A stretch of DNA of 64,000 nucleotides from Eledone cirrhosa (taxonomy: Eukaryota): positions 85,250,001-85,314,000 of the forward strand of contig OZ024742.1 in NCBI GenBank assembly GCA_964016885.1, given 5' to 3'. The first letter of the stretch is position 1; each line of letters opens with the position of its first letter. Under the pieces are notes generated by a model. The model was not told where the DNA came from, did not search any database, and saw nothing but the letters and a program-made list of their open reading frames with translations. Below are positions 1 through 64,000 of this stretch, one piece after another. A program made the position numbers and the translations under genes.

Positions 1-287
1 CATACTTATATTTAAGTAACAGCCGTACTAAGAGTGAAAAATGAAATTTCGTTTCATTTTTTCTTTCTATATATATCGGTACAACCTATTCGGTTCATTC
101 AGTTTGCATAGGTTGCATCGATATATATATATATATATATATATCCGTGTGTTCTTGTATGATGGCCCTATAATGATGAGAAGACTCCTCAGAGTAAGGA
201 GACAATTGCCCTTGTTTTTTTACTGAGTCCAATAATGTGTGATGGTGGTCATAACCTCAATAAAATAAAGTGATTTTAATAAACTAT

Positions 288-15563: not shown

Positions 15564-15705
15564 TTTGAAAAAAACGTAAAGTATGTCTTCACTTGTAGTG
15601 TTAAACAATTTTTGATTTAATTTTATAATATTATAATATTATAAAATTAAATAAAAAATGTGTATACACTACAAGTGAAGTCATTCTTTTCCTTTTTTTC
15701 AAATA
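15564..15705. repeat. Imperfect ~140 bp palindrome next to (TA)n
   Basis: cttcacttgtagtgt...aattttataatattataatattataaaatt...acactacaagtgaag. Confidence 0.8.
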
Positions 15706-18961: not shown

Positions 18962-19073
<112 letters not shown>

Positions 19074-19093
19074 TTATTAAAATAACAGATTAA

Positions 19094-19144
19094 AGTTTAA
19101 GCAAAGAATAGCTGCTTTCAACCTTAACGGGATCTTCTGAAACT
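19094..19144 (-). ncRNA. Hammerhead-like motif, CAGAAGA core variant
   Basis: agttt-CAGAAGA-stem II-GAAA gca..tgc T T-aaact. Confidence 0.55.
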
Positions 19145-21629: not shown

Positions 21630-21680
21630 AGTTTCGGAAGATCCCGTTAAGGGTGAAAGCAGCGATTCTTTGCTTAAACT
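21630..21680 (+). ncRNA. Hammerhead-like motif, CGGAAGA core variant
   Basis: agttt-CGGAAGA-t ccc gttaa ggg t-GAAA gca gcgattctt tgc T T-aaact. Confidence 0.55.
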
Positions 21681-22237
21681 TTAATCTGTTATTATAATAA
21701 ATATTTGCTCTACGATTCTTATATATTTGATATATATTTATCCCTCTTTGAATTTTAGTCTTCAATTTATTATTATTACTATATATATATATATATATTT
21801 AATTTCTATCATTGTCAGTTTGAATCTAACTGACATGCCAAAACATATATATAGGAATAAGATACGCCCAAATCATAGTAGATTCAAATATCACAGAGCG
21901 AAATAGAGAAGGAGGGGGGATGAGGTGGTACAGAAATGAAACATGGATTACAGATCAAGATGTAGTCTAGATAGATAAGAAAAAAACGAAGATGTAGTTT
22001 ATGGAACACCCAGAGACGGTGGAGATACTGGTCAAGAGGTTAATGTAATCGTTTTCAGTTTTTATTTTACATCCCAAAATGAAAAGATTTATCAGGAACC
22101 CTATTCCCGACCAGGATCGAACTTCAGACCAGGATCAACACCGTACAGGATTCCTTCAACTAGGCTAGCGTTAGAGCTACAATATTATAATGAAAATTGA
22201 TAATTAGAAAACTACTTTCAAAATCATAGTTTAAAAG

Positions 22238-22890
<653 letters not shown>

Positions 22891-23224
22891 TATATATATA
22901 AATATATATAGGCATTTCATCGCTTTAAAGACCATATACCTCCGGTTGGTGCGAGCAACAGCTAAAAAAAGTTGTTGGGACACGTAAATAAAGGGGACGC
23001 GAGGGTAAACTAACAAAATGGTGAGACAACAGAAAGGGAGGAAAGGAGACAAGTCCCAGATTTCTCTTTAAAGCGATGAAATGCCTATGATAGTTGGAAG
23101 ATCACTGATGAAGGACAAACTTTTTTCATATGTAACCCATTTGCAACTCCGCAGCGCCCTTATTATCATATTTACATATAAATATATATATATATATATT
23201 CTTTTTTTTTTATTGTATAGAAGG

Positions 23225-23275
23225 AGCTTCTACAGGACTAGGACTGTTTCATTCAGATGAAATCTTCAGGAAGCT
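23225..23275 (-). ncRNA. Type I hammerhead ribozyme
   Basis: Identical inverted copy of 23476-23526. Confidence 0.85.
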
Positions 23276-23475
23276 GGGTGTCATTTTAAGTTCTGGTATT
23301 TATACATTTAGGTAGTGGTAAGGGAGGGGTGGTGGCTGGGGGGGATGTTTCGGGGTAGGATGGTATTTAGATGTATCTAAATACCACCCTACCCCAAATA
23401 ATCCCCCCCCCCCAGCCGCCACCCCTCCCTTACCACTACCTAAATGTATAAATACAAGAACTTAAAATGACACCC

Positions 23476-23526
23476 AGCTTCCTGAAGATTTCATCTGAAT
23501 GAAACAGTCCTAGTCCTGTAGAAGCT
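23476..23526 (+). ncRNA. Type I hammerhead ribozyme
   Basis: agcttc-CTGAAGA-t ttc atct gaa t-GAAA cag tcctagtc ctg T A-gaagct. GUA triplet. Stem I covaries with the 59224 copy. Confidence 0.85.
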
Positions 23527-23613
23527 CCTTCTATACAATAAAAAATGTTTTACTCTTCCATGTATTGAGTACCTTACTTACTGTGGTTATCCCCGACTCA
23601 ACCCGGGACCTAC

Positions 23614-23650
<37 letters not shown>

Positions 23651-33692: not shown

Positions 33693-36600
33693 ATGCCAAG
33701 AAAACGTTCCAGATCATTATATGGAAGGTCATCTTCAGAGGCTAAGAGAAAGAAAACACAGCGATCTGAAGAAAGTGAAGAAGTTCGGCATGCCCCTCTA
33801 GCTGCTAACAGATCCCAAATAGCTTTAGTACGACGAGCACACCGTTTGGATGAAAGGGAACAAAGGACTGTTGCTACACGAGAACAACAAATTACAGAAC
33901 AGCAGCAGATCATACGAAATGCTAATCAAGCACTGCCCGAGCAGGAGAACGATATGCTACTCAAGCACTTCGTTCTACTGCGCGAGCAGGAGAATAAGCC
34001 ACAAGTAAAATGAACTGGCTGATGGGTGCTTTTTCTTATGACCCCCAAAGGGATTACAGCAGTAATCCACAAATCAATATTGGGAAAATGAAGAAATGCT
34101 GTCAGTATTGTGGTGCCAAGAAGTGGGCTGCAGAAACACCAAGTTTATGCTGCTCAAAAGGCAAAGTGAGCCTTAACACAATACAAGAACCTCCTGAATT
34201 TCTGAAGAATCTGCTCCTTCAGCACACACCAGAAGCACGACACTTTAATAAATACATCATACAATTTAATTCTGCCTCTCAAATGACATCTTTTGGGGGG
34301 GGCTGACAGGAATGTGACTGACTTTAGATTCTCTACAACTTATAAAATTCAGGGACAGTGTTAACACTTAATGGATGGCCTTCTGCCATTTGCACAGGAG
34401 CCTCACAAATGTGTGCAGGTTTACTTCATGAGTGGAAATGAAACACAGGCACAACAAGGATGTACCAATGTCCATGGTGGATTGCAGTTCTACATAGTCA
34501 TACAGTTCCAAGAAATGCTTCACCAACATCACATGTACGTCAGTGTATATAAATATGCACTGAAGTATATGAACAACACCAGAGATCGTAAACTTATCAT
34601 TATGGAAGACAAACGCCCAGTTTCAGAACATGAACGCAGATTCAATGCATATGTCACTGATGAAGTTGCAATCATAATGGTTGATGACCAACATCAACGA
34701 CGTGACATTATTTTAAAAAACGAAGTGGACATTTGGAGCGAATTTATGAAACTCATAGATCCTATGATTCACTCCAATATCCGCTCATCTTTTGGAATGG
34801 TCAAGATGGATATCATTTTCAGCTACGGCAGATAAGCTCAGGAATGGGACAAGAAACTGGCCGATCAATCAGCTGCAAAGAATTATATGCTTATCGTTTC
34901 ATAGTACGTGACCAGCCAGTTCATGGTGGACATGTATGCCAAAATTGTAACAAAGATTGAGTTTTCTGCGAAGGAATCAAACTAAGTTGAGGGCAGATAA
35001 CTACATCCACATTAGAGATGCCATCAATTCTGATGTTGACCCAAGAAATATTGGCCAGCCAGTCATATTACCATCAAGCTTCACGGGAGGACCACGTTAC
35101 ATGCATGAACGTACGCAAGATGCAATGGCCTATGTCAGAAAATTTGGCCGGCCAGATCTCTTCATTACATTTACATGCAATTCAAACTGGTCAGAAATAT
35201 CAAATGAATTATTTCAAAATCAAAAACCAGAGGATCGACATGACCTCATTGCTTGGGTTTTCCATGAAAAGCAAATACATTTCATCTGGCTCCTAAAAGA
35301 AGAAAGAATCTTTGGTGAGCTTAGTGCTTGGATGACCACTATTGAGTGGCAGAAGAGAGGTCTTCCTCACTCTCACACACTAATCTGGTGCAAGGAGAAG
35401 ATAAGATGATGTTGATAAGATCATTTCAGCAGAGTTGCCTGATAAAGGTGGTGATCCAGAGCTCTTTCAAACCATCAAGTCCAAACTCATGGTCCATGTG
35501 GAGTCATCAATCTAGCCTCTCCTTGCATGAAAGATCAAACATGCAGCAAACATTATCCTAGAGCTTTGATTCAGGAAACTCGGACTGATAATAATGGATA
35601 CCCCCCTTATCGTAGGGGTAGACCAGAACATGGAGGAAATACTGCAAGCCTAACAGTTCGAGGAGAGGAGCTGACCATAAACAATCAGTGGGTCGTCCCA
35701 CACAACAAATTGTTGTGTAAACTTTTAAAAGCTCATATCAATGTTGAGTATTGCAGCTCCATCAATGCAATCCTATATGTCACAAAATATATCAACAAGC
35801 GCAGTGACATTGCTACCTATATTACTGACAAATAACTCAATGATGGTGGGCTGGATGAGGTCAAACGGTATTAAACAGGTCGATACATCTCCAGCAGAGG
35901 AGCTATCTGGCGAATATTTGGATTTGATAGCCACCAACGCCACCCAACAGTGGTCAACCTCGCAGTCCATCTGGAAAATGGACAGAGTGTACTTCACTGA
36001 GATCACTGCTCATCAGTTGGAACAAGCATCACATGACACTACACTAACTGCTTTCTTTAAACTCTGCCAGAATGATGAATTAACTCGGTCCCTCCTATAT
36101 GCTGAAGTCCCAACATATTACACCTGGACCAATTGCAAGACCTGGAATCGAAGAAAGCGGGATCATTTAGTGGAAGGTCATGAGGTCAGGTCAAGTGATG
36201 GTATTGGGTGTGTTTATATGTCCATCCCAACAACAGAGAATGTTTTTATTTACGGCTACTTCTGCATACTGTTCGAGGACCAACGTCATTTTAGGACCTT
36301 AGATGCTTCAGAGGAAGGGAGTGTGCAACATACCAAGAAGCATGTGAACAGCATGGACTTCTGCATGACAATGGACACTGGAAGAAGTGCCTAGAAGAAG
36401 CAGCAATCACTCAAGTAGCCAGTCTAATAACACCGTTATTTGCTATTATGCTCACAGCATGTGGAATTGATGAAGCTCATCTACTCTGGCAGGAGTACAA
36501 AAACAATATGTCTGACGAAAATCTACACCTAGCCCGGAGAGATCATGGCAATATGTATATGAAATATACTCCCAGGATTTACAATCAAGCTCTCTGTGAC

Positions 36601-38070
36601 CTGTCCCATCGCGTTGAGGCAATGAATAGCACATTAGCTAACTGCGGGATGCCAGAGCCAGATGAAGAAATGGAGGTAGCACAAGACATTTTTCAGGAGA
36701 CAAACTACGATATTCAAGCATTGCGTAAGTTTGTGGATGAAAATGAACTTCGATTGATAGATGACCAGAAATACGCCTACCACATCATTGAAAACATTCA
36801 AAATGACAGTGGGGGGCTTTTCTTCATCCATGCTCCTGCTGGCACAGGCAAGACATTCCTCATAAATCTCCTGCATGCAAAAGTTCGCCAAAAGCAGCAT
36901 ATTGCCCTTGCTGTGGCTTCAAGTGGTATTGCAGCAACACTTCTGGATGGAGGTAGAACTGCACACTCCATGTTTAAGTCGCCCATAGATCTCACACGGC
37001 ATGAACAATCTTTTTGTAACATCAAGAAGAACTCACCCACAGGCAGGTTTCTGCAAATATGCAAGATGATAATTTGGGATAAAGCTACTATGAGTCATAA
37101 AGGAACAATTGAAGCTTTGGACCGGACGATAAGAGATCTGAGAGAAAATATTTGCACAATGGGAGGAGTGACAATGGTTCTTGCTGGTGATTTCAGACAA
37201 ACTCTGCCTGTAATTCTTCGAGGGACTCGAGCTGATCAGGTCAATGCCTGTCTTAAACCATCCTATCTCTGGCCCCACTTTCAGCTGCTGAGCCTTACAA
37301 CCAACATGCGAGTGCACTTAACTGGTGACGAAGGTGTCAGTGAGTTTCCTATCCATCTACTTAAATTGGGTAATAGGCTTCTTGAAAAGGACTCCAATGA
37401 CCATATTCAGTTGTCATTTGGCCATATCATTGACACAGAACAAGAACTGATTGCCAGAGTGTTTCCAAACGTTCAGACCAGGCAATGTGATCCGAAATGG
37501 CTCTGTAAATGAGCAATCTTAGCACCTAAAAACGTTGCTGTGAAAGAAATCAACAGGAGGCTGCTGGAGATGTTACCGGGAGAGAAAATATGCTACAAAT
37601 CAGTTGACACAATCACTTCTCAAGACCAGTTTGTAACTATCCAACTGTATTTTTGAACAGTCTTGAACAAGCAGGAATTCCTCCACACAACCTGATACTG
37701 AAGCTTGGAGCATCGGTTATGCTACTTCGCAATCTGGATCCTCCAAAACTTTGTAATGGCACAAGACTCATCATCAAATATATAATGTCCAATGTTCTAG
37801 AAGTTGCAATCATTGTCAGGAAAATTTACAGGTGACAATTGTTTCTTTCCCAGAATACCTCTGAAGCCAAGTGATTTGCCATTTGAATTTCAAAGACTTC
37901 AATTTTCGGTCAGGCTCAGTTTTGCCATGACCATTAATAAATCTCAATGGCAATCATTGAAAGTCGTTGGGTTGAATGGCATGGTCAATTCTATGTTGGC
38001 ACAACAAGGGTTGTCTCTTCATTGTGGAACCACAGGGCAAAACCAATAATTTTGGAATGAGCAATGTCGT
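33693..38070 (+). pseudogene. Helitron RepHel, disrupted
   Basis: Motifs CQYCGAKKW..CCSKG, ILPSSFTGGPRYM, PDLFITFTCN, TIEWQKRGLPHSH, YVTKYINK, APAGTGKT, GDFRQTLP, FAMTINKSQ. Confidence 0.93.
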
Positions 38071-43700: not shown

Positions 43701-46441
43701 GAGTTCATGGATCTTTGCGATGGCGATCTGTTTGCAAAAACATTGTATTATGCCAATGTGCCAAAGTTTTACACTTGGAGTAATAAGAGATGGGAAAGGA
43801 GAAAGGTAGGGAAAACTGTTGATGCAGTAACCAGGGATTTTTGAGGCGAACGTTTTGGGACGAGTATACACTGTTTCTCCACGAAGTGGTGATCTGTATT
43901 ATTTAAGACCTATTCTGCATCACGTCAAAGGGCCAGTATCCTTCAACTCTTTGAAAGTGTGTGATGGAGAACTCCTGCCATTATTCAAAGACGTCTGCAG
44001 GGAGAAAGGTTTGCTTCAATCGGATGATCATTGGCAGCAGACTCTGGAAGATACTGAGCGAACAAGGCTTCCCAAAGCTATGAGAGATCTATTCATCCTG
44101 TTCCTCATAAATACGGAAATTGACAATTCCAGTGCTTTATGGGTTCGATTTAAGCATTCGCTGTCTGAGGATTACCTTCAAATAGAAAAAAAGGGCTACC
44201 AGAAACTCTAACCTTTTGATTAGCGAGAGACATTATGATCAATGTCTTCTGTATTTCGAAGACAAAGCTAATGACATGGGCAAAAGTCTTAGTGAATTAA
44301 ACTTGCCAAGGCCAAATAATATTTTTGCTAATCAGGATATTCGCAATTTGGAGTTATTGCACGAATTGCAATACAGCACAGAAGAGCAGCGACGATTTGT
44401 ATAAGAGACGGAGCCTCTGTTGAAGAGTGAACAAAAACACGTGTACGACTTCGTTTGTAACAGTTTAGAGACGAACACAACTGCATTCATTTTCATTGAC
44501 GCTCCAGGTGGAACAGGAAAGACATTCCCGATTAACTTAATTATTTCAAAAGTCAGGGGAAACGGTGTCGTGGCTATAGCTGTTGCGCAATCTGGCATTG
44601 CCGCAACACTGATGCCTGCTGGAAGAACAGCGCATTCTAGGTTCAAAATACCGATAGTAGTCAAAGAAAATGGTCTGTGCAACATTGATAAAAACTCAAC
44701 GACGGCAAACTTCTTCCAGCATACAAGGCTGATTGTTTGGGATAAGTGTTCTATGATTCGCAGGGAAAGCTTCGAAGGTGTTGACCTCACTCTGCGTGAC
44801 ATATGCGACAACATTAAAATATCCTACGCCTGCATTAAAATATCCTACTTATGGCGAAGCTTCAAAAGATTTCAGTTGAAGACAAACATGCGATTGAGTG
44901 GGGGAAGAGGAGACTATTCACAGTTCCTATTGGATATTGGAGAAGATAAGATAAAACAAACTGAAAATGAGAAAATTATTTTGCCAACATAAATGGTTCT
45001 CCAAGCAACAACAATGGAAGAATGTATTGATTTCATCTACCCCTCATTCGGCAATCCAGCTGAAGTGTTTTCGAACAATTGCATCTTAGTACCTCTCAAT
45101 AAAATGATGAGAAGCATAAAAGAGTACCGATCATATAATTCTGTGAGTGATGGTGCCAGTGCCACTCATTTCCCGACTGAATTCCTTGATTCGGTTGAAC
45201 TATCACGACTGCCACCATATAACCTGGAATTGAAAAAAGGATCGCCAATAATTCTTATGAGAAACTTGAATCCTCCAAGGATTTTTAATGGAACTAGCAT
45301 GATCGTGGAATAACTGCACGACGATCTCATAGTAGCAAGAATCAACACTGCTGCTTTCAGAAATGAGATCGTTATGATACGTAGAATAAGAATTAATCTA
45401 TCCGAAGGTGAGGATATCCATTTGCAGCGAAGCCAATTCACAGTTCAATCGTCCTTCGCTATGACTATTCATAAAGCGCAAGGACAAACTATGGAAAACG
45501 TCTTGGAATGACCTTTATTCCAACACGGTCAACTGTATGTAGCCCTTAGCCGCGGAAAACGAAAAGAAAATGTCAGAGTGTGTTTGAAGGATACCCAGCC
45601 AACTAAGAATGTTGTCATCAAAAGCATTCTTTTGAACAAACTGTAACAGCGTAAATATGAGAAAATGTTGATTCCGACGTCAGAAAATGAAAGGAAAAGG
45701 AAAAACTGAGACAAGTAAACATAATTTCTTTCAATTTTTTTTGTAAATAAAACCAGCTTTTCATTAACATTGCAACTTTTTAAGCAGAAAAATCTTTCAG
45801 AACATCCATAGAGATATGGAAAAAAGAATTTTGAAGTGGAGTGATTGGATAGCTATTAGTGAAAAATGATTTGATATTTTCTTTGTGAATAATACAGTGA
45901 AAAGACAAGTTTCACGTAAATCGTACCACGGGGTCCCGAGATACGCGGGTTTTTTCGGGTACCTTTATAAGTATCCAAATCAGCGCATAATGGGAAAATT
46001 CTTTGAAAATAAAGTACCATTGAAATCTGAATACAAACGCAGATAGTGGCTGTGAGAGAAAGAGAGAGAGATAGAGAGAGGGAGAGAGCTGGTGGTGTTG
46101 TTGAATGAAATTATGACTGGTGACTTCAAAAAATTGAATACAGCATTATTGTATCTAGCTGGAGTTTGGTGACTGAATATTAAGTTATATGTATCTTATA
46201 ACGTGTGTTAGGACAGGATGTATGTGTGTGTGTGTCTGTAACCAGTGTATACAGGCCACAGATACCCACACACACAAACACATATGTATATATATACATG
46301 TACATACACACACACACACATACACGTATATATATATTGGCTGTCCAATGTCATTTTACATTATATACATTTTGTGTATATTTTAATTATTTAAAAATGA
46401 TTTTTAAGTGAACATGACCCAACGGGTCACGGGTGGTCTAT
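39884..46441 (+). mobile_element. Helitron 3 (decayed, third family)
   Basis: 5' TCtatttactac. RepHel remnants. 3' hairpin tgaccc aac gggtca then ggtCTAT. Subterminal repeats at both ends. Confidence 0.8.
41447..45647 (+). pseudogene. Helitron RepHel, disrupted
   Basis: Motifs YNCLFQMTSFG, FFISMTCNPNWPEI, TVEYQKRDLP, KYIIKYSMKGND, DAPGGTGKT, GRTAHSRFKIP, FAMTIHKAQGQT, HGQLYVALSR. Confidence 0.93.
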
Positions 46442-48504: not shown

Positions 48505-48574
<70 letters not shown>

Positions 48575-48655
48575 GTTATTCCGGGTTGAATGGGAGGTAA
48601 CCACAGTAAGTAGGTACTCAATACATAGCAGAGTATAACAGTTTTAATATAGATG

Positions 48656-48706
48656 AGATTCTACAGGACTATAACTGTTTCATTCTTTAGAAATCATCAG
48701 GAATAT
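48656..48706 (-). ncRNA. Type I hammerhead ribozyme (3' pLTR)
   Basis: atattc-CTGATGA-t ttc taaa gaa t-GAAA cag ttatagtc ctg T A-gaatct. Confidence 0.8.
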
Positions 48707-49457
48707 GGGTATCAAAAAATAAAAATGGTATTTATAGGTCTCTACAAGTGGTAGGAGAGGGTGGGGAGTGGGATGGGTGTAGGTCATTGGTTGATAGAAA
48801 AGGGAATTCATTAAAAGCTAATTCTACAAAGCTATAGTTTATTTTTATTAACAAAGGCAGACATAATGCTATAAGCAGGTTCCGGATGGCATACCATTCC
48901 TTGTCATTAAGTTTCTCTTAAGCTAACATATGTCTATAAGATCAGTGGGGGGTCAGTCATGGTAGAAAGAATTAAAGAAAAGGAAGATTCTTTAAAAGCT
49001 AAAATCATTAAGGTTCTACTAAGTGACAAAGGTTTAGAGAATTCTGTAGACAGATTCAAATACTGAGTGCATATCTTACAATTATCTTCGAACTTCTCTT
49101 AAACTAATCAACTATATGCCAACAATCAACAGACACATTCACAAAAAAACACACTCACTCACACACTCACGCGCAAACATAAACACACATACACATATAC
49201 ACACATAAAAACACACACACATATATATAAATATTCATATACATACATATACATACACACATATATACATATATATATATATATATTTAAAAAAATGTAT
49301 ATATATACACACACACATATACATACACACACACATACATATATATACACACACACACACATATATACACATATAAAAATACACTCACACACATACATAC
49401 AAACACAAATATACATGTGTATACATATACACATAAAGACACATAGATATATACATA

Positions 49458-49548
<91 letters not shown>

Positions 49549-49589
49549 CATATACACACACATATATACACATACACACACATACATAC

Positions 49590-49624
<35 letters not shown>

Positions 49625-49682
49625 TATACACATATATAAGGAAAAAGCACCATACATACATGTATATATATATATATATATA

Positions 49683-50724
49683 TGGTGGCTGCCAACTCGT
49701 TTTCGAGTACGGCCACTACTTTATATCCATGTAGGAGAACCCCCACCGATGCGCTAAACAGGTGTGACTTTTAGTCCAGCCAGCGACTTGAAAACTCTGG
49801 TACAAACACTACACCTGTGACAATTATTGACACATAGTGTTGGGCCTTTGGTACCATGTGACGACAAGTGTAGAGAGATCTCCAGATATAAAGCAATGCC
49901 TGTGCCGTGAAGCTTTTATAGTGAGCAAAGGCACTGCACAAAGCCAGTCCCACTCTCTTAACCAAGATGATATTTACCAAAAAGAAGAATAAGTCAACAT
50001 CATTGGATACCATCAGGGTTGCAGGTGTTATATCAGAGTTTTCCTTCTCTTAGAATTCTGCCTTGACAAAGGCTAAGGGGTCATCTCTCCCGGACACACA
50101 CATATATATATATACATATGGTGGCCGCCAACTCGCCTTCGAGCACGGCCACTACTTTACATCCATGTAGGAGAACCCCTACCGATGCGCTGAACGAGTG
50201 TGACCCTCAGTCGAGCCAGCGACCTGAAAACCCTGGTACAAACACCATAATTGCGACAACTACTGACACAGTGCCGGGCCCATGGCACCATGCGACGACA
50301 AGTGCAGAGAGATCTCCAGATATAAAGCAATGCCTGTGCCGTGAAGCCTTCACAGTGAGCAAAGGCACTGCACAAAGCCAGTCCCACTCTCTCAACCAAG
50401 ATGATATTTACCAAAAAGAAGAACAAGTCAACATCATTGGATACCATCAGGGTTGCAGGTGTTATATCAGAGTTTTCCTTCTCCTAGAATTCTGCCTTGA
50501 CAAAGGCTAAGGGGTCATCTCTCCCGGTGATTTTGGATGGCCATTGACTCTTAAGAGCTCCTTTGCCCATTGACACGTTTTGTTTTTAGTCCTGCAGGAT
50601 GTCCAAAGTCACCCTCCTCACCAAGAAACCTTGGTGGGGTTGCCAGTTTAGTCGCCAACGACCCGACCATGAGACAGGTTGTACTGGGATACATGTTACC
50701 AGTAGCACCAACTGGTGAGCTGAC
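49683..50724 (-). mobile_element. Non-LTR (RTE-like) 5' UTR segment with a ~410 bp direct duplication (49683-50093, 50117-50527)
   Basis: The duplication is read directly. The RTE assignment rests on recalled similarity of ctaggagaaggaaaactctga and ggcgactaaactggc to RTE 5' UTRs. Confidence 0.5.
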
Positions 50725-50750
50725 ATATGTATATATATATATATATATAC

Positions 50751-50793
<43 letters not shown>

Positions 50794-50872
50794 TATATAG
50801 AGGGAGAGAGATACACCATTCATACATATATTCATATATTCATATATATATATACACATATTCATACATATA

Positions 50873-50936
<64 letters not shown>

Positions 50937-50997
50937 TACACACACACATATACATACATACATACATACATACACATACACATACAAACACATATAT

Positions 50998-51042
<45 letters not shown>

Positions 51043-51351
51043 TATACATACATACACATATATACATACATATAAATACACACATAAAACACATATACAC
51101 ACATACATATATATATATATATATACACATACACATACATATACACACATACAAACAAATATATACACATACAAATAAATAAGTACTCAATAAATATACG
51201 CATATACGCAGGCACATAAAAACATCTCTACAGGCAGAAAATGTAGATAGGAAGGATGTACTCACATAACCATAGTGGCCGTATTTCAGGTTGAGGAGGG
51301 GTGGGGGTAGGGCGGGGAGGAGGTATAGGGGCCAATAGGGGGAGGTCATTT

Positions 51352-51750
51352 TTAGCCATCGGGCTTTAACACTGGCTTAAAGTGTTTGAAAGTTGCAAAG
51401 TTCTTGTGCATGCAGTTCGGCAGTGTTCAGAGAGTTTGTTCAGTAGCGGGCCCTTGGCGAATAAAATTTCGTAGCTCTCTGAAATACAAAGCTCGCTGCC
51501 CTTGTGTCCTCCGTTGTAAGAGCGCGCTTTCTGGAGTATTTTCCATTTAAGCGTGAAGGGGGTGGAGTTCCTTTTGAGGTCTCAAACGTAGGAGGCGAGT
51601 CTTGTCTGATTTGATTTGTCCGGTCTTCTGAAGGAGTGGGTATGGGCATACCAACGGGTCTTAAAGTTGTTGGAGGTCATGCCGATGTAAGTTTTTTTGC
51701 ATTCCTCGGAGCCTGAGATGACATCGCATTTGTATACGATATCATTAGTT
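51352..51750 (-). pseudogene. GIY-YIG endonuclease of the same element, out of frame and interrupted
   Basis: DIVYKCDV...TYIGMT..FKTRWYAH...YV*DLK...CDLCISE. It has a 4-nt insertion, a Trp->TGA change and a further 1-nt deletion. Confidence 0.9.
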
Positions 51751-53499
51751 AGGGAGGCATTTGTTTTCAAGTGGGCATGCTTCCTTATTCAGGCAATTAC
51801 ATAGAGCCCCAGTCCGGGGAATGGGTTCGGAGGTGGTTGGCTTATTTAATTTTTTAGAATTGTGGTTGGCTATATTCCTAGCTAGGTTAGGTGTGGTGGA
51901 GTAAGACAGTCTTATTGTGTTCTTATTAAAGATGGTGTGGTACCTATGTTGTATGGGGAAGTGTAATTTCAGTAAAGTGAAGAAAATCCTAGCTATCGGA
52001 GTAGATACCTCTCTATTGAAGGGAGGGTTGTACCAGCTAATCTGCCTATGTCTATTCCTCCTCTGCCATCTTGCGGTGGTTTCTAGGTAAGTTATCTTAT
52101 CTTTAAATCCGCTACGGGCAAGGGCGTCATTGTAGTAGGAGGCAGATGCATTAAAAATATATTTGTTGGCGGAGAGGCCAGATATTCTAATAGAGACGCT
52201 TTTTACTAGGTTATCAGTGATGTTTTGGGGGTGGTTTGAATTAACATTAATATATTTAAGGGACTCGTTAGGTTTGTGGTACGGGTAATAGAGGGAAGTG
52301 TCTAGGTCGAGAGTGACATCTAAGAAGTTGGCCCTAGTCAAATTAGAATCTATAGTTATACTAAATCCTAGATTAGAGAAGAAAGAGCTTAAGTTTTTCC
52401 GAAACCCATCGGTGGTTCTGGGGTTAACCTTACGCAGGGCTAAGAGGCCGTCGTCTCGGTATAAACCTCCCGTTAAGCCGGTAAAGAGGTTCTTCAGGTT
52501 ATGTAGGATGTACAGGCCCACAAGGTCGCTAATTTCAGCCGAGTCACTCGCCCCCATGCTAACGTCAAATGGGGTCTGAGATTTCTTGTTGATCCAGTAA
52601 GATCCATCGTGGTATAGAAAGGTCTTACGAGCGTGGAGGATAACAACTTGCTCAGCATCGGTAATGGTGGTAAAATTCCTGGCAAAGTTAATTGCGTCCT
52701 TCAGGAGGGGCTCCGAGATAGAGGCATAGTAGTTTTCTATGTCGAGTTGCAGGAAGCGAGTGTGGTGTTTATCGGGTAATTTTTGGAACCATGATATTGC
52801 CTCAGATGTTCTGCTCCAGAGTGGAAGTGGTGAGGCTGCCCGCAATGATGGTAGAACTCTATCCAGGATCTTCTTACTGATAGAGCCGATGTCAGAACGA
52901 GTGGGGTTGATAAGTCTGACTGATGGTTCGTTGAGGAAGTTTCCCTTATGGTCCTTCAGGGTAAAGTGCGAGGTCTTTACCCTTAAAGGTTCGGTTCGGT
53001 CGTGTAATTTAGGGGACTTGGCGATTTCTTTTCCGACCGCGTTTGTCTCAGTCAGTGCCCTCTCTATTACCTTTTTGTAGGTGGTCGTGATGGTATTTTT
53101 TGCCAGCTTATTGTAGGTCGGTGTTTCTACCTCATAAACGTTTTTGGTTTTATCGGAGGAGACATAAAGATTAGGGGATTTTTTTATATTCCGTAATTCG
53201 GCATTTAAGTAGGCCTGGAATGGTGTGGTGGCTGTACGGAATTTAATATCCTTGATCATCTTGAAGAGGTCTTCTTCAAATGGTTGGAGTAGGCTGTTGG
53301 TGGGTGGTGACTTATTCGTTTTGAAGCCGAACTTCTCATCATTGGTAGATGCTACATCAGTGTTGTCGAGGAAGAAGGCCCTCCATCTAATTCGCTTGAT
53401 GAACTCGTCGGTACGTCTGATGAGTGTTTTTAAGTATAGTTTCCTTGGGGGGATAGGGATGTTCTTCAAGGAAATATCAAGGTCGAGTTTGGTCAGCAT
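51745..53499 (-). CDS. PLE (Naiad-like) reverse transcriptase, open frame of ~584 aa from the ATG at 53499
   Basis: aaccATG context. Motifs SLKNIPIP, SSDKTKNVY, LKDHKGNF, VRLINP, LDIENYY, FDVSMGASDSAEISDLVGL, GLYRDDGL, NFLDVTL, SNHP, WYNPPF, CNCLNKEACPLENKCL. Confidence 0.92.
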   Translation of the reverse strand: MLTKLDLDISLKNIPIPPRKLYLKTLIRRTDEFIKRIRWRAFFLDNTDVASTNDEKFGFKTNKSPPTNSLLQPFEEDLFKMIKDIKFRTATTPFQAYLNAELRNIKKSPNLYVSSDKTKNVYEVETPTYNKLAKNTITTTYKKVIERALTETNAVGKEIAKSPKLHDRTEPLRVKTSHFTLKDHKGNFLNEPSVRLINPTRSDIGSISKKILDRVLPSLRAASPLPLWSRTSEAISWFQKLPDKHHTRFLQLDIENYYASISEPLLKDAINFARNFTTITDAEQVVILHARKTFLYHDGSYWINKKSQTPFDVSMGASDSAEISDLVGLYILHNLKNLFTGLTGGLYRDDGLLALRKVNPRTTDGFRKNLSSFFSNLGFSITIDSNLTRANFLDVTLDLDTSLYYPYHKPNESLKYINVNSNHPQNITDNLVKSVSIRISGLSANKYIFNASASYYNDALARSGFKDKITYLETTARWQRRNRHRQISWYNPPFNREVSTPIARIFFTLLKLHFPIQHRYHTIFNKNTIRLSYSTTPNLARNIANHNSKKLNKPTTSEPIPRTGALCNCLNKEACPLENKCLPN

Positions 53500-53629
53500 G
53501 GTTTCTTGATGATGGTTATAAGGGGCACAGAGAGTGCTAACATGTACGTTATTCCGGGTTGAATCGGAGGTAACCACAGTAAGTAAGGTACTCAATACAT
53601 AGCAGAGTATAAAAGTTTTAATATAGATG

Positions 53630-53680
53630 AGATTCTACAGGACTAGAACTGTTTCATTCTTTAGAAATCATCAGGAATCT
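53630..53680 (-). ncRNA. Type I hammerhead ribozyme (5' pLTR, ~130 nt upstream of the ATG)
   Basis: agattc-CTGATGA-t ttc taaa gaa t-GAAA cag ttctagtc ctg T A-gaatct. Confidence 0.87.
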
Positions 53681-54243
53681 GGGTATCAAAAAATAAAAAT
53701 GGTATTTATCGGTCTCTACAAGTGGTAGGAGAGGGTGGGGAGTGGGATGGGTGTAGGTAATTGGTTGATAGAAAAGGGAATTCATTAAAAGCTATTTCTA
53801 CAAAGCTATAGTTTATTTTTATTAACAAAGGCAGACAGAATTCTATAAACAGGTTCCGGATGGCATACCATTCCTTGTCATTAAGTTTCTCTTAAGCTAA
53901 CAGATGTCTATAAGATCAGTGGGGGTCAGTCATGGTAGAAAGAATTAAAGAAAAGGGAGATTCTTTAAAAGCTAAAATCATTAAGGTTCTACTAAGTGAC
54001 AAAGGTTTAGAGAATTCTGTAGACAGATTCAAAATACTGAGTGCATATCTTACAATTATCTTCGAACTTCTCTTAAACTAATCAACTATATGCCAAAAAT
54101 CAACAGACACATTCACAAAAAAAACACACTCACTCACACACTCACGCGCAACCATAAATACACATACACATACACATATACACACATAAAAACACACACA
54201 CATATATATAAATATATTCATATGCATACATATACATACACAC

Positions 54244-54318
<75 letters not shown>

Positions 54319-54475
54319 TATATATACACACACACACACACATATACATACACACACACATACATATATATATACACACACACACACACATATATACACA
54401 TATAAAAATACACTCACACGCACACATACAAACACAAATATACTTGTGTATACATATACACATAAAGATACATAG

Positions 54476-54526
<51 letters not shown>

Positions 54527-54629
54527 AACAAATATATACATATACATACACACACATACATACATATAAATATATATATACACACACACACACACATATA
54601 CACATATATAAGGACAAAGCACCATACAT

Positions 54630-54692
<63 letters not shown>

Positions 54693-54744
54693 TATATATA
54701 GAGAGAGAGATACACCATTCATACATATATTCATATATATATAT

Positions 54745-54803
<59 letters not shown>

Positions 54804-54904
54804 TATATATATACACACATACACACATATACATACACATATACACACACACATACACATACATACATATATACACAAATACATACACATATATACACAT
54901 ATAC

Positions 54905-54974
<70 letters not shown>

Positions 54975-55095
54975 CATAAATATATATATATATATAAATA
55001 AATATACACACACATACATACATATACACACATATATATATATATACAAATATATATACAAACAGATATAAATACACATACACATATAAATATAT

Positions 55096-55154
<59 letters not shown>

Positions 55155-55177
55155 TATATATATATATATACATACAC

Positions 55178-55208
<31 letters not shown>

Positions 55209-55241
55209 CATATACACACACATATATACACACATACACAC

Positions 55242-55274
<33 letters not shown>

Positions 55275-55521
55275 TACACATGGATATGTATAAATATATA
55301 TATACATTTTGTATATATATATATATATATATCCATACATATACATATATACACATACATACACAGACCTATACATAAATATACACATATATACAGACAT
55401 ATAACACATATACACACATATATATACATATATACATATATATACACGCATACACACCTACACACTCACACGCTCAAATATATATGCACACTCTCTCTCA
55501 CGCACATATACACATATATAC

Positions 55522-56420
55522 TAATGTTAATTCAAACCACCCCCAAAACATCACTGATAACCTAGTAAAAAGCGTCTCTATTAGAATATCTGGCCTCTCC
55601 GCCAACAAAGATATTTTTAATGCATCTGCCTCCTACTACAATGACGCCCTTGCCCGTAGCGGATTTAAAGATAAGATAACTTACCTAGAAACCACCGCAA
55701 GATGGCAGAGGAGGAATAGACATAGGCAGATTAGCTGGTACAACCCTCCCTTCAATAGAGAGGTATCTACTCCGATAGCTAGGATTTTCTTCACTTTACT
55801 GAAATTACACTTCCCCATACAACATAGGTACCACACCATCTTTAATAAGAACACAATAAGACTTTCTTACTCCACCACACCTAACCTAGCTAGGAATATA
55901 GCCAACCACAATTCTAAAAAATTAAATAAGCCAACCACCTCCGAACCCAATCCCCGGACTGGGGCTCTATGTAATTGCCTAAATAAGGAAGCATGCCCAC
56001 TTGAAAACAAATGCCTCCCTAACTAATGATATCGTATACAAATGCGATGTCATCTCAGGCTCCGAGGAATTCAAAAAAACTTACATCGGCATGACCTCCA
56101 ACAACTTTAAGACCCGTTGGTATGCCCATACCCACTCCTTCAGAAGACCGGACAAATCAAATCAAACACCACTCGCCTCCTACGTTTGAGACCTCAAAAG
56201 GAACTCCACCCCCTTCACGCTTAAATGGAAAATACTCCAGAAAGCGCGCTCTTACAACGGAGGACACAAGGGCTGCGACCTTTGTATTTCAGAGAGCTAC
56301 GAAATTTTATTCGCCAAGGGCTCGCTACTGAACAAACTCTCTGAACACTGCCCGAACTGCATGCACAAGAACTTTGCAACTTTCAAACACTTTAAGCCAG
56401 TGTTAAAGCCCGATGGCTAA
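55522..56420 (+). pseudogene. Inverted 5'-truncated copy of the PLE ORF (thumb plus GIY-YIG)
   Basis: Nearly identical to the minus copy and has the same 4-nt insertion and TGA. Confidence 0.92.
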
Positions 56421-56727
56421 AAATGACCTCCCCCTATTGGCCCCTATACCTCCTCCCCGCCCTACCCCCACCCCTCCTCAACCTGAAATACGGCCACTAT
56501 GGTTATGTGAGTACCTCCTTCCTATCTACATTTTCTGCCTGTAGAGGTGTTTTTATGCGCCTGCGTATATGCGTATATTTATTGAGTACTTATTTATTTG
56601 TATGTGTATATATTTGTTTGTATGTGTGTATATGTATGTGTATGTGTATATATATATATATATGTATGTGTGTATATGTGTTTTATGTGTGTATTTTTAT
56701 GTATGTATATATGTGTATGTATGTATA

Positions 56728-56794
<67 letters not shown>

Positions 56795-56855
56795 ATATAT
56801 GTGTATGCATATGTATGTGTATGTATGTATGTATGTTTGTATATGTGTGTGTGTA

Positions 56856-56980
<125 letters not shown>

Positions 56981-57065
56981 GTGTGTGTGTGTATGTGTGT
57001 ATGTGTGTGTGTGTATTTATATATGTGTGTGTGGGCAGGTGTGTGTATATATATGTGTGTATATG

Positions 57066-57100
<35 letters not shown>

Positions 57101-57281
57101 GTGTATATGTGCGTGAGAGAGAGTGTGTATATATATTTGTGCGTGTGTGTGTGTATGTGTGTATGCGTGTATATATATGTACATATGTATATATATGTGT
57201 GTATATATGTGTTATATGTATGTATATATGTGTATATTTATGTATAGGTCTGTGTATGTATGTGTATATATGTATATGTAT

Positions 57282-57339
<58 letters not shown>

Positions 57340-57353
57340 TTATACATATGCAT

Positions 57354-57393
<40 letters not shown>

Positions 57394-57422
57394 GTATATG
57401 TATGTGTATGTATATATATATA

Positions 57423-57499
<77 letters not shown>

Positions 57500-57581
57500 G
57501 TATGTGTGTATATATGTGTATGTATTTGTGTATATATGTATGTATGTGTACGTGTGTGTGTATATGTGTATGTATATGTGT

Positions 57582-57623
<42 letters not shown>

Positions 57624-57681
57624 GTGTATATATATATATATGAATATATGTATGAATGGTGTATCTCTCTCTCTCTATATA

Positions 57682-57729
<48 letters not shown>

Positions 57730-57853
57730 GTAGGAGGTGAGTTTTATTGTAGTACAATAAAGCAATGCAGGTATCGGATAATAAGCACTCTACAGTTTGT
57801 AGGACTGGAGTATGCATAATATAAGATCAAAAGATGGTTAAAGGAGTTCCATG

Positions 57854-57924
57854 TATTTTATTATGCGCATTTCAAAAACAAACATCATCATGCAATAATA
57901 TTTGTGTTTTCATCAGATAAAACA
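57854..57924 (-). ncRNA. Type I hammerhead ribozyme
   Basis: Inverted copy of 58043-58113. Confidence 0.8.
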
Positions 57925-58042
57925 GGAGAACATGATATGAAGGCTAAAAAACACTTGTGGATAGTGCAGTTTTAAATCAACAAATGTTGATTTAAAACTG
58001 CACTATCCACAAGTGTTTTTTAGCCTTCATATCATGTTCTCC

Positions 58043-58113
58043 TGTTTTATCTGATGAAAACACAAATATTATTGCATGATGATGTTTGTTTTTGAAATGC
58101 GCATAATAAAATA
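58043..58113 (+). ncRNA. Type I hammerhead ribozyme with a palindromic stem III
   Basis: tgttttat-CTGATGA-aaacacaaatatt..gatgtttgttttt-GAAA tgcgca T A-ataaaata. Confidence 0.8.
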
Positions 58114-58143
58114 CATGGAACTCCTTCAACCATCTTTTGATCT

Positions 58144-58198
<55 letters not shown>

Positions 58199-58224
58199 GT
58201 GCGTTTTCCTTATATATGTGTATA

Positions 58225-58257
<33 letters not shown>

Positions 58258-58366
58258 GTATGTATGTGTGTGTATGTATATGTATATATTTGTTTATGTA
58301 TATATATATATGTGTGTGTGTGTTTGTGTGTATGTGTGTGTATGTGTATATATGTGTGTGTATATG

Positions 58367-58430
<64 letters not shown>

Positions 58431-58585
58431 CTATGTGTCTTTATGTGTATATGTATACACATGTATATTTGTGTTTGTATGTATGTGTGTGAGTGTATTT
58501 TTATATGTATATATATATGTGTGTGTGTCTATATATATGTATGTGTGTGTGTATGTATATGTGTGTGTGTGTATATATATATATA

Positions 58586-58660
<75 letters not shown>

Positions 58661-59223
58661 GTGTGTATGTATATGTATGTATATGAATATATTTATATAT
58701 ATGTGTGTGTGTTTTTATGTGTGTATATGTGTATGTGTATGTGTATTTATGGTTGCACGTGAGTGTGTGAGTGAGTATGTTTTTTTGTGAACGTGTCTGT
58801 TGATTTTTGCCATATAGTTGATTAGTTTAAGAGAAGTTCGAAGATAATTGTAAGATATGCACTCAGTATTTTGAATCTGTCTACAGAATTCTCTAAACCT
58901 TTGTCACTTAGTAGAACCTTAATGATTTTAGCTTTTAAAGAATCTCCCTTTTCTTTAATTCTTTCTACCATGACTGACCCCCCACTGATCTTATAGACAT
59001 CTGTTAGCTTAAGAGAAACTTAATGACAAGGAATGGTATGCCATCCGGAACCTGTTTATAGAATTCTGTCTGCCTTAGTTAATAAAAATAAACTATAGCT
59101 TTGTAGAATTAGCTTTTAATGAATTCCCTTTTCTATAAACCAATGACCTACACCCATCCCACTCCCCACCCTCTCCTACAACTTGTAGAGACCTATAAAT
59201 ACCATTTTTATTTTTTGATACCC

Positions 59224-59274
59224 AGATTCCTGATGATTTCTAAAGAATGAAACAGTTCTAGTCCTGTAGAATCT
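59224..59274 (+). ncRNA. Type I hammerhead ribozyme (inverted pLTR)
   Basis: Same sequence as 53630-53680. Confidence 0.87.
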
Positions 59275-60621
59275 CATCTATATTAAAACTTATATATATA
59301 TATAAATATATATGTATTGAAGTTTCCGTTGAAAATTGAAAAAGTCATAGGAGTGAAGGGTGCTTATGTAAGTACCAGAGCAAAATGTAATGTCTCAATG
59401 GGCTATTTGATAGTGCTGATGTTTGTGATTTAGTCAACCTATTTCTCCTACACACACTTAAAGAAGAATTCCCTAACCATATTTTTGGGCTTTATCGCAA
59501 CGATGGTCTAATACTTTCCCATACCACCATAGGCCATAACTTAGATAGATTAAGGAAAGACTTAATAAAAACCTTTGCTAGTTTTAATCTTAAAATTACT
59601 ATTGAGACTAACATTTCCAATGTTAATTTCCTAGATATAAACCTAGATTTGCCTACTGCTTCTTATAAACCATACCATGAACCTAATGAAAATTTAAAAT
59701 ATATAAATAAAGGCTCTTGCCATCCTCCTATAGTTTTTAAAATCCTTATCCCTAATATTAGCCGTAGGATCTCCACCCTCTCTTCCTCAGAAGTTATTTT
59801 CAATAAGGCATCCCCCTACTATAATAAAGCCCTCCAAAATAGCGGATTTAGCGAACCGATTAAGTACATACCCAACAATACTAACTCCTTTAAACATAAT
59901 AATAGGAAAAGAAAAATAATCTGATTCACACTCCCCTACTCTCTAGCAGTTAAAACTAATCTAGGCAAAACATTCCTAGAGCTCTTAGATAAACATTTCC
60001 CTAGAACACATATATACTATAATATCTTCAATAGAAACTGTGTCAAAATTAGCAACTCCTGCGGTCCCCCTATTAAATCCTATATCATCAACAAAAAATC
60101 ACCTATAGAACATCAAAATTGCTCCTGTAGAGTCAAAAGTGAATTCGCATTACAAGGTAAATGCAACACCAAAGCCATTGTATATGCGGTTAAAGTGACA
60201 ACCATCAGCAACAACCAACCAGCGTCCAGTGAACGATATGTGGGTATGACACAAGACAAATTCAGAACGCGTTATTACTCACATATCGCATCCTTCCGAC
60301 ATCCAGAAAAAAGATTCACAGCAGCTCCAATATAAATTGGATTGGTCAATTTTGAACCAATCTAAAGAATATGCAAGAGGAACAAAAAAATGAACACTCT
60401 GCATAAATTAAAAATATCCAAATCACCAAAAATCTGCCTAAATACAAAGACAGAAATTTTCACCAGTTGCCCACACATGAAATCACACTTGCTTTCCAGC
60501 TCATATAAACCTAACTCACTTTCAGATACTTATCCTCCATAAGCTCTTATTCTTCACTTTAATTATTCTCTTTAAAGACTACTCTTTCTGATTTATTTTC
60601 ATTTTCAACCTTATTATTAAT

Positions 60622-63082: not shown

Positions 63083-63388
63083 TTATATATATATATATAG
63101 TTAAAAGAATAGAGGTGTAACACACAAGTTATTAAATATTGGTAAACGGAATAGAAAATGCTGCCCAGAGCAAACAACACGGACGCTCTATCTCAAAATT
63201 ATTTTTGAAAAGCATTTAGAAATGCGCAACCGGTAAAAACTTAAAACCAAAACTGAATACTTACCAATACAATCACTAATACTCTTTTATTCCTAATTAA
63301 ACTATTTTTCACCTGTGAACAATTTGTCAGCATTTTCTATTCCGTTTACCAATATATATATATATATATATATATAGGAACGAGTAAG

Positions 63389-63482
63389 ACACCGACGGCT
63401 GAGCTCAAGCCGTTTCGACGGCTAATTCTGGACTAAATGAAAATTTATCCCGGTATATAAATAGCCGAGCTTCTCAAGGGGT
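63389..63482 (-). ncRNA. Inverted copy of the U3-A8 hammerhead (one stem I mismatch)
   Basis: Reverse complement of 63811-63904. Confidence 0.7.
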
Positions 63483-63810
63483 AATTCCATATATGGTCAA
63501 AGTGATTGTCACAAGGATTGGTCACAAGTTAGTAGTAATTCTGTGATGACAAATTAGTGGGGGAGAGAGTGGCTTAACCTGCCAGTAGGAGAAAAAGGAG
63601 GTGCTGGAGTAGACCCAATCATGCGTTGGTAGTGCCGGCTACAGCTGGGCATGAGGTCAAAGAAGATACTAGGGAGTGGGAGAGGGTGGTAGTCGAAACG
63701 GTAAGTACTGGCAGGGTTAGCCACCCTCTCCCCCACTAATTTGCCATCACAGAATTACTACTAACTTGTGACCAATCCTTGTGACAATCACTTTGACTAT
63801 ATATGGAATT

Positions 63811-63904
63811 ACCCCTTGAGAAGCTCGGCTATTTATATACCGGGATAAATTTGCATTTAGTCCAGAATTAGCCGTCGAAACGGCTTGAGCTCAGCCGTCG
63901 GGGT
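63811..63904 (+). ncRNA. Type I hammerhead ribozyme, U3-A8 core variant
   Basis: acccc-TTGAGAA-gct cggcta...tagccg tc-GAAA cggct tgagctc agccg T C-ggggt. GUC triplet. Confidence 0.75.
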
Positions 63905-64000
63905 CTTACTCGTTCCTATTACCCACTCTACTACCCTAAGTATTGAGTACTATGGTGCGTTTATGATCCACCTGGTTCCTTACCACATTTCCTTCGTTAT

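What the first reader, a model, noticed from the sequence alone, without database searches (positions are those of the whole stretch)
57726..58151. Coding-free near-perfect palindrome with a hammerhead on each strand
Seen: 167 bp arms, a 2-nt loop and one mismatch, so the insertion is young. Each strand encodes the same hammerhead in its 3' arm, and one side has a ~90 nt tail containing AATAAA. It sits in (TA)n inside another PLE. Unrelated families show the same design at 9112-9928, 23206-23616 and 63374-64000. Inference: these are either extreme 5'-truncation-plus-inversion products of PLEs or a class of non-autonomous, retrozyme-like hairpin elements. A transcript from either strand would form a rod-like dsRNA that sequesters its own ribozyme. 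It would also be a substrate for ADAR or Dicer.
Basis: partly seen in the sequence, partly recalled or inferred. Interest (0 to 1): 0.75.

Follow-up and report, generated by a model that had tools for sequence, protein, structure and literature searches.

The report
Penelope start-site palindrome, remade each jump
This palindrome is real and is one of at least 2,000 head-to-head copies of the front end of a Penelope-type jumping gene, likely rebuilt at every insertion when two reverse transcriptions run off the capped start of one RNA, which would help explain how this class makes its mirror-image ends.

Summary
The palindrome, both hammerhead motifs, the one-sided 90-nt tail and the (TA)n site are confirmed. 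The unit is the pseudo-LTR of a 3.7-kb Hydra-type Penelope-like element (800-aa RT/GIY-YIG ORF found elsewhere in the genome). At least 2,004 loci share this centre, but the hairpin does not behave as an inherited unit: centres vary, subfamily variants are mirrored in both arms (167 of 180), and in 52 of 52 copies one arm ends near +167 and the other near +257. An extra G precedes +1 in 17 of 30 arms (control 2 of 42), as expected from copying an RNA cap. Best reading: both target strands prime reverse transcription at two internal sites of one capped, uncut RNA, and the two cDNAs join head to head. Unexpectedly, 0 of 53 ORF-linked copies that reach +1 stop there, against 48 of 100 arms overall, so long copies use another template, possibly a ribozyme-made circle. 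One whole-hairpin copy was found. No RNA evidence was obtained. The scan noted similar palindromes and a twin-priming reading before, in this and other genomes. A known layout, with unusually clear mechanistic footprints.

The parts
57726..57985 (-). Long arm: pLTR of a Hydra-type PLE from +1 (57985) to about +260 (site 2), then (TA)n
   Evidence: 97% match to the pLTR in front of the 800-aa ORF in L136 and other loci
57982..58151 (+). Short arm: same pLTR from +1 (57982) to +167/170 (site 1), then (TA)n
   Evidence: 52 of 52 palindromes pair a site-1 end with a site-2 end
57982..57985 (.). Head-to-head junction: ATAT overlap of the two 5' ends with one later substitution at 57983; inferred transcription start
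58043..58113 (+). Type I hammerhead motif (core from 58051, long stem II, palindromic GCGC loop III, predicted cut after 58105)
57854..57924 (-). Identical type I hammerhead motif (core from 57916, predicted cut after 57862)
57726..57815 (-). 90-nt tail between the two inferred reverse-transcription start sites; contains a short hairpin whose 3' strand is the AATAAA (57748-57743); no poly(A) follows in any listed copy
   Evidence: (first 100 rows)
57690..57725 (.). (TA)n target, left part
   Evidence: empty paralogous site 54628-54702
58152..58189 (.). (TA)n target, right part
48569..59296 (-). Host: older insertion of a different Hydra-like PLE (ORF about 53634-51426 on minus, inverted truncated copy 55516-59296); the palindrome sits in the microsatellite-rich 3' UTR of the inverted copy
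   Evidence: self-BLAST, tblastn 41% to the parent ORF, hammerhead cores at 48700, 53674, 59230

Best explanation
The palindrome is two head-to-head copies of the pseudo-LTR of a Hydra-type Penelope-like retrotransposon, likely written afresh at insertion by two reverse transcriptions primed from opposite strands of a (TA)n break, both running off the capped start of the same uncut RNA. Shown: the parent element, the two fixed 3' ends (+167 and +257), the fixed 5' end (+1), the extra G, the mirrored variants, the variable centre. Inferred: the element's protein cuts both strands of (TA)n; one 3' end starts copying at site 1, the other at site 2 (hence a tail on one side only); both reach the cap, often copying it as a C; the two cDNA ends, which finish in self-complementary ATAT, anneal (commonest junction) or are end-joined and filled in. 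The template would be a single-arm RNA starting at the centre, not a rod. The hammerhead is a passenger here: it is under structural constraint in the family but must stay uncut for this product.
For: Parent: tail runs on into a 5' UTR and 800-aa ORF at 215 exact matches, against 13,294 tail ends. Two-end rule: 52 of 52 short palindromes; also in long insertions, including two cases of two full-length elements head to head with one end at each site (L124/125, L134/135). Fixed start: 48 of the first 100 arm matches begin at +1 (+-2), 11 of them joined to a differently truncated partner or to flank rather than a full mirror (my tally). Extra G before +1 where the parent has C: 17 of 30 arms starting exactly at +1, control 2 of 42 truncated ends, P=9e-7 (11 further arms with C at -1, 7 of them ATAT overlaps, were set aside; with them 17 of 41). 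G occurs on either arm or both. Single template: arms differ by 1.5 within a copy versus 7.0 between copies; common variants concordant 167, discordant 13; 7 copy-private variants mirrored. Centres: 21 of 50 ATAT overlap, 29 of 50 other forms. Asymmetric insertions whose short arm has the tail plus 3' UTR cannot be self-copies of the long arm's cDNA (L126, L127), which excludes simple snap-back. Palindrome haplotypes have ORF- or UTR-linked counterparts. Biochemical precedent: a Poseidon PLE cuts and extends both strands, starts at two internal RNA sites that bound the tail, prefers uncut RNA and is modelled as a dimer (PMC11167929).
Against: One complex 35-nt centre occurs at exactly two loci 71 kb apart with unrelated flanks (L012, L013), so whole hairpins can be copied. 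At least one palindrome (L149) has arms of two subfamilies and L151, L029, L005 are partly discordant, so two RNAs are sometimes used. Post-insertion homogenisation of arms could also mirror variants. The cap reading of the G rests on recalled knowledge of L1/Alu insertions, not on 5'-end data. In the Poseidon study the two sites are 30-40 nt apart; here 90. Thirty of the 52 palindromes were picked by likeness to the window copy, and the listed rows come from the first part of one contig.
Confidence: 0.72

Rival explanations
1. Self-propagating single-arm element: the palindromes (or any solo pLTR) are themselves transcribed from the centre and feed new palindromes in trans, like a SINE of the PLE; same twin-priming chemistry, different source.
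For: Palindromes outnumber ORF-linked pLTRs about ten to one (2,004 vs 215); they keep +1 and everything downstream; a lone minimal hammerhead is expected to be inactive (PMC4209133); no ORF-linked copy starts at +1.
Against: No palindrome-only lineage among 182 sampled arms: the large haplotype groups include ORF- or UTR-linked members; the bases upstream of +1 are replaced.
Confidence: 0.3
2. Whole hairpin mobilised as a unit, with arms later homogenised and centres eroded.
For: 40 of 40 scored hits are full length; 21 of 50 centres identical; one proven whole-unit copy.
Against: Cap-like G on either arm; same +1 end in asymmetric insertions; centres not following haplotypes; arm mismatches private; only 7 of 30 consecutive tail-anchored loci are short palindromes, the rest a continuum of longer or lopsided forms.
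Confidence: 0.07
3. Snap-back: one cDNA folds on its own 3' end and copies itself (or self-priming on an antisense RNA, as proposed in PMC3846280).
For: Explains identical arms and mirrored private variants; 4 of 19 ORF-linked copies with an adjacent inverted arm are symmetric at arbitrary positions.
Against: Either arm can be the longer at the centre and both can carry the extra G; tail-bearing short arms next to site-1-ended long copies cannot come from self-copying; L149 is a two-template hybrid.
Confidence: 0.12
4. Fold-back assembly artefact.
For: Near-perfect palindromes between simple repeats are a known long-read artefact type (general knowledge).
Against: Tail on one side only, unrelated flanks, empty paralogous site, thousands of loci with differing centres; contigs of public runs show the fold-back letters before +1 and TA ends at both sites (same study, so not fully independent).
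Confidence: 0.01

Closest known systems
Inverted-pLTR-plus-tail insertion unit of EN+ Penelope-like elements (Craig et al. 2021 PMC8557442; Arkhipova et al. 2013 PMC3846280)
   Same: Head-to-head inverted copy at the 5' end, tail on one side, hammerhead in the pLTR, (TA)n target, palindromic junction.
   Different: No ORF at all; both arms stop at one fixed, cap-marked position; at least 2,004 such loci; tail 90 nt instead of 30-40.
Hydra clade PLEs, e.g. Hydra-1_Obim (PMC8557442 section 11 and supplement)
   Same: Parent ORF has the DKT motif, an RW motif at the RWK position, CxCX5C linker, C-terminal GIY-YIG-like domain with CxxC and CxH, hammerhead, (TA)n insertion; N-terminus resembles Hydra-1_Obim by eye.
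   Different: Distinct family; 3.7-kb unit with a 1-kb 3' UTR (Hydra generally under 3 kb); no tree was built.
Poseidon_Ac of Anolis carolinensis (Frangieh et al. 2024 PMC11167929)
   Same: Two internal RT start sites bounding the tail, both DNA strands extended, uncut RNA as main template.
   Different: Other clade; its sites lie inside the ORF start and are used without strand preference in vitro, whereas here each insertion uses one of each; inverted joints were not explained there.
Animal non-LTR retrozymes (bioRxiv 10.64898/2026.07.22.740005; PMC7229834 listing only)
   Same: Non-coding, type I hammerhead, related to PLE pLTRs.
   Different: Retrozymes are head-to-tail tandem arrays; this is head-to-head, two copies, and matches its autonomous parent base for base.
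L1 twin priming (recalled, not checked in a call)
   Same: Both target strands prime on one RNA, giving an inversion.
   Different: In L1 the two cDNAs cover different parts of the RNA; here both copy the same part, giving a duplication.

Membership tests
Hydra-clade PLE (parent element) | Single ORF, RT followed by C-terminal GIY-YIG endonuclease | tested here: met
   800-aa ORF with YRDDG and a C-terminal LIY...YFG stretch, read by eye; Pfam gave no significant hit; 15 homologues at 33-38%
Hydra-clade PLE (parent element) | DKT instead of DKG; CxCX5C linker; CxxC and CxH in the EN, no CCHH | tested here: met
   motifs read in the L136 translation against the definition
Hydra-clade PLE (parent element) | RWK motif | tested here: inconclusive
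   RW followed by I or T at the matching place
Hydra-clade PLE (parent element) | Hammerhead in the pLTR and insertion into (TA)n | tested here: met
   (30 of 30 loci in TA)
Hydra-clade PLE (parent element) | Placement in the Hydra clade by RT phylogeny | not tested
   reference sequences were seen only as text
Type I minimal PLE hammerhead | Conserved core and palindromic loop III with 1-2 bp stem III | tested here: met
   core varies at 1.1% of cells versus 12% in loop II; loop III GCGC within palindromic AUGCGCAU
Type I minimal PLE hammerhead | Stems I and II maintained by selection | tested here: met
   8 of 8 common stem substitutions keep pairing, all one-sided; no two-sided change; fold z-scores not significant
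Type I minimal PLE hammerhead | G10.1-C11.1 pair | tested here: not met
   A-U in 158 and G-U in 12 of 170 arms
Type I minimal PLE hammerhead | Self-cleavage | not testable with these tools
   genomic proxy weak: 198 vs 56 pattern matches at cut site vs control, many slippage variants
Non-LTR retrozyme | Head-to-tail tandem units, at least two consecutive hammerheads | tested here: not met
   two head-to-head arms only; definition
Non-LTR retrozyme | Circular RNA expressed | not testable with these tools
   no RNA run on record among the holders
MITE / non-autonomous DNA transposon | Terminal inverted repeats at both ends, inherited centre | tested here: not met
   90-nt tail outside the repeat; centre varies; sequence is a retroelement pLTR
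Self-propagating non-autonomous PLE derivative | Own lineage separate from autonomous copies | tested here: inconclusive
   no palindrome-only large haplotype in 182 arms, but only 16 ORF-linked arms in that set

The most novel reading that the evidence does not exclude
The family records a two-template life cycle for Penelope-like elements. Capped, uncut RNA starting at +1 yields only short twin-primed palindromes, because ribozyme cleavage at +124 of the downstream pLTR strips its two RT start sites; full-length partial-tandem copies come from a hammerhead-cut, circularised monomer that RT reads round past +1. This would be genomic evidence for the circular intermediate proposed by Cervera and de la Pena (PMC4209133) and, with the one-site-per-strand rule, would account for inverted pLTRs, tails and partial tandems in one model. 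Basis: 0 of 53 ORF-linked copies stop at +1, upstream duplications have scattered lengths, and 5' and 3' pLTRs of one element differ by 1.9% versus 6.3% between elements. Template jumping or an upstream promoter is not excluded.
Probability: 0.35. Interest if true: 0.75.

Novelty: new variant of a known kind. Interest (0 to 1): 0.5.

Why it matters
How Penelope-like elements make their inverted and partial-tandem ends is stated as unresolved in PMC8557442 and PMC11167929. This family gives countable footprints of the reaction: two fixed priming sites used one per strand, a cap mark at the joint, one template for both arms, and a clean split between short copies that stop at the start site and long copies that never do. 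It supplies an intact ORF, a 260-nt template and a (TA)n target for a direct test. It also means one genome carries at least 2,000 near-perfect 330-bp hairpins that would form long double-stranded RNA if read through, and that annotators could misfile as MITEs or microRNA precursors.

Tried and rejected
Rfam: no hammerhead family among the 150 of 182 window matches listed or the 10 matches on the arm; hits were microsatellite-driven miRNA and snoRNA models. Pfam found nothing on the window's PLE ORFs or the parent ORF. RNA: no RNA holder listed; this says nothing on expression. Contig laying (3 of the 4 listed runs, on the parent's 5' region) was used only qualitatively; depth is no copy number. 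Ribozyme-cut templates: 198 matches at the predicted cut versus 56 at a control site; by eye about 29 of the first 100 and 14 of 56 are slippage or point variants, the region is AT-rich, and only 1 of 100 ORF-linked 5' ends lies at +121..128: inconclusive. A-to-I footprint: none. AATAAA as poly(A) signal: no A run after the tail in 100 listed rows; it may instead be a hairpin strand. My first pairing of arms mispaired L027 with a neighbouring element and was redone; one script crashed. My microsatellite-masked palindrome scan broke the arms and was replaced by self-BLAST. Literature searches listed no paper describing cap-marked solo-pLTR palindromes or twin priming for PLEs; the library lacks most subscription papers, and the preprint's supplements were closed. 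The first third of PMC13282606 does not mention such elements.

Full report
Observation. The palindrome is as described: arms 57816-57982 and 57985-58151, loop AA, one mismatch, hammerhead cores at 58051 (+) and 57916 (-), a 90-nt tail on the left, (TA)n on both sides. It lies in the microsatellite-rich 3' UTR of an older Hydra-like PLE insertion (48569-59296); a paralogous part of that host has the same two flanks around an empty TA run (54628-54702), so the palindrome came later. The window copy differs from its 29 closest relatives at only a few positions, so it is young. Below, +1 is the first base of each arm at the centre.

The family. A search of the window's own 3.0-Gb genome gave 811 candidates; all 40 scored were full-length tail-plus-palindrome copies, 92-100% identical, and all 30 fetched sit in (TA)n. 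Exact patterns count 13,294 tail ends, 12,919 arm starts and 2,004 palindromic centres; these are lower bounds. In 30 consecutive tail-anchored loci, 7 are short palindromes; the rest are longer or lopsided insertions of the same sequence.

The parent. At 215 places the tail runs on into a 5' UTR and an ORF. L136 holds an intact 800-aa ORF between two copies of the unit, 3.7 kb apart. It has the DKT, CxCX5C, CxxC and CxH motifs that define the Hydra clade in PMC8557442 (section 11 read; passages; supplement rows) and resembles Hydra-1_Obim by eye. The palindrome is therefore two copies of this element's pseudo-LTR.

Is the hairpin inherited or remade? In 52 short palindromes (30 chosen by likeness to the window copy, 22 from other searches) the two arms differ by 1.5 bases on average against 7.0 between copies; common variants agree in both arms 167 times and disagree 13 times; 7 variants private to one copy are mirrored. 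Centres vary: of the first 50 listed, 21 are a loop-less ATAT overlap, 1 is that form with a substitution as in the window, and 28 are other forms (my tally). The overlap form recurs in different subfamilies, while close relatives differ. So the mirror is built at each insertion, usually from one template. Exceptions: L149 has arms of two subfamilies, and one complex centre occurs at exactly two loci 71 kb apart with unrelated flanks.

Two fixed 3' ends. In 52 of 52 palindromes one arm ends near +167 and the other near +257. Long insertions follow the same rule, including two pairs of full-length elements head to head. In L126 and L127 the long, ORF-bearing copy ends at site 1 while the short inverted copy carries the tail, which self-copying of one cDNA cannot give. 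PMC11167929 (main text read) showed for a Poseidon element that both DNA strands are cut and extended, that RT starts at two internal sites bounding the tail, and that uncut RNA is the main template. My inference is twin priming with one site per strand.

A fixed, cap-marked 5' end. Of the first 100 arm starts, 52 continue into the parent's 3' UTR and 48 begin at +1 (my tally). Where an arm starts exactly at +1, the preceding base is G in 17 of 30, though the parent has C; at other truncated ends G occurs in 2 of 42 (P=9e-7; 11 arms with C at -1 were set aside). G can be on either arm or both. From recalled knowledge of L1 and Alu insertions this is the mark of a copied cap, so +1 is likely a transcription start. 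The first four bases, ATAT, are self-complementary, which explains the commonest junction. The template would then be a single-arm RNA; only read-through RNA forms the rod.

The hammerhead. The motif has the full core, a long stem II and a palindromic loop III as in dimer-type PLE hammerheads (PMC4209133, passages and Discussion). Across 171 distinct arms the core is nearly invariant, loop II varies, and 8 of 8 common stem changes keep pairing, all one-sided. It lacks the usual G10.1-C11.1 pair, Rfam missed it, and its fold is not more stable than shuffles. 5' ends at the predicted cut are at most modestly enriched.

An unexpected split. Of the first 100 ORF-linked pLTRs, 53 reach +1 and none stops there, against 48 of 100 arms overall (P=9e-12). 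Their upstream duplications have scattered lengths, and the two pLTRs of one element differ by 1.9% against 6.3% between elements (13 elements). So the capped +1 RNA is not the template of long copies. A hammerhead-cut circular monomer, proposed in PMC4209133, fits, because the cut at +124 lies upstream of both RT start sites; template jumping or an upstream promoter also fit.

Other window sites. For 23206-23616, 4 of 40 scored candidates (the window's own included) match the whole palindrome and the three others invert at different points; for 63706-64000 the relatives read on upstream. They share the two-end layout but not a fixed centre. 63374-64000 gave no canonical core.

Comparison. The layout is the known inverted-pLTR-plus-tail unit (PMC8557442; PMC3846280, passages and Discussion, which proposed self-priming) reduced to its minimum. 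It fails the tandem criterion for retrozymes (bioRxiv 10.64898/2026.07.22.740005, first fifth read). Seven searches found no description of cap-marked start-site palindromes. Earlier unreviewed notes of this scan reach similar twin-priming and start-site readings for other loci; I saw them after forming mine, except that they pointed me to Hydra-1_Obim, and they are not support. None of the short texts shown mentions the 0-of-53 split.

Verdict. Real, retrotransposon-made, not a new hairpin replicon; a variant of a known structure whose numbers make an open mechanism testable. Interest 0.5.

Noticed in passing
L061-L090, L231-L300 (first 100 of 215 ORF-linked matches): None of 100 ORF-linked pLTRs starts at +1; 53 read through it, 47 are truncated downstream of it.
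   Followed up: yes
L012 and L013 (G000:C24, 71 kb apart): Identical complex 35-nt centre at two loci with unrelated flanks, found nowhere else in the genome: a whole-hairpin copy or ectopic conversion.
   Followed up: partly
L124/L125 and L134/L135: Two full-length elements head to head, one ending at site 1 and the other at site 2.
   Followed up: partly
L149: Palindrome whose arms belong to two different subfamilies.
   Followed up: partly
window 23206-23616 and 63374-64000: Other PLE families with the same short-end/long-end layout (tails about 70 and 81 nt) but variable inversion points; 23206 is related to the host element.
   Followed up: partly
window 48569-59296: 10.7-kb nested inverted insertion of a Hydra-like PLE whose 3' UTR microsatellites have received further insertions.
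   Followed up: partly
window 4960-6243, 20117-20476, 59391-60335: Further Hydra-like ORF fragments, 34-50% identical to the parent ORF.
   Followed up: no
window 30268-31347, 36295-37512, 44405-44992: Three PIF1-helicase fragments, probably Helitrons (inference).
   Followed up: no
window 18977-21801, 22238-22889, 2784-3563, 15560-15707: More inverted-repeat insertions seen in the self-comparison.
   Followed up: no
hammerhead stem II, unit positions 77, 81, 84, 87: Four of eight common stem variants are A/G on the 5' strand of the long stem; direction unknown, so an old editing footprint is neither shown nor excluded.
   Followed up: no
window 57742-57764: Short hairpin just before site 2 whose 3' strand is the AATAAA; candidate RT-start signal.
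   Followed up: no
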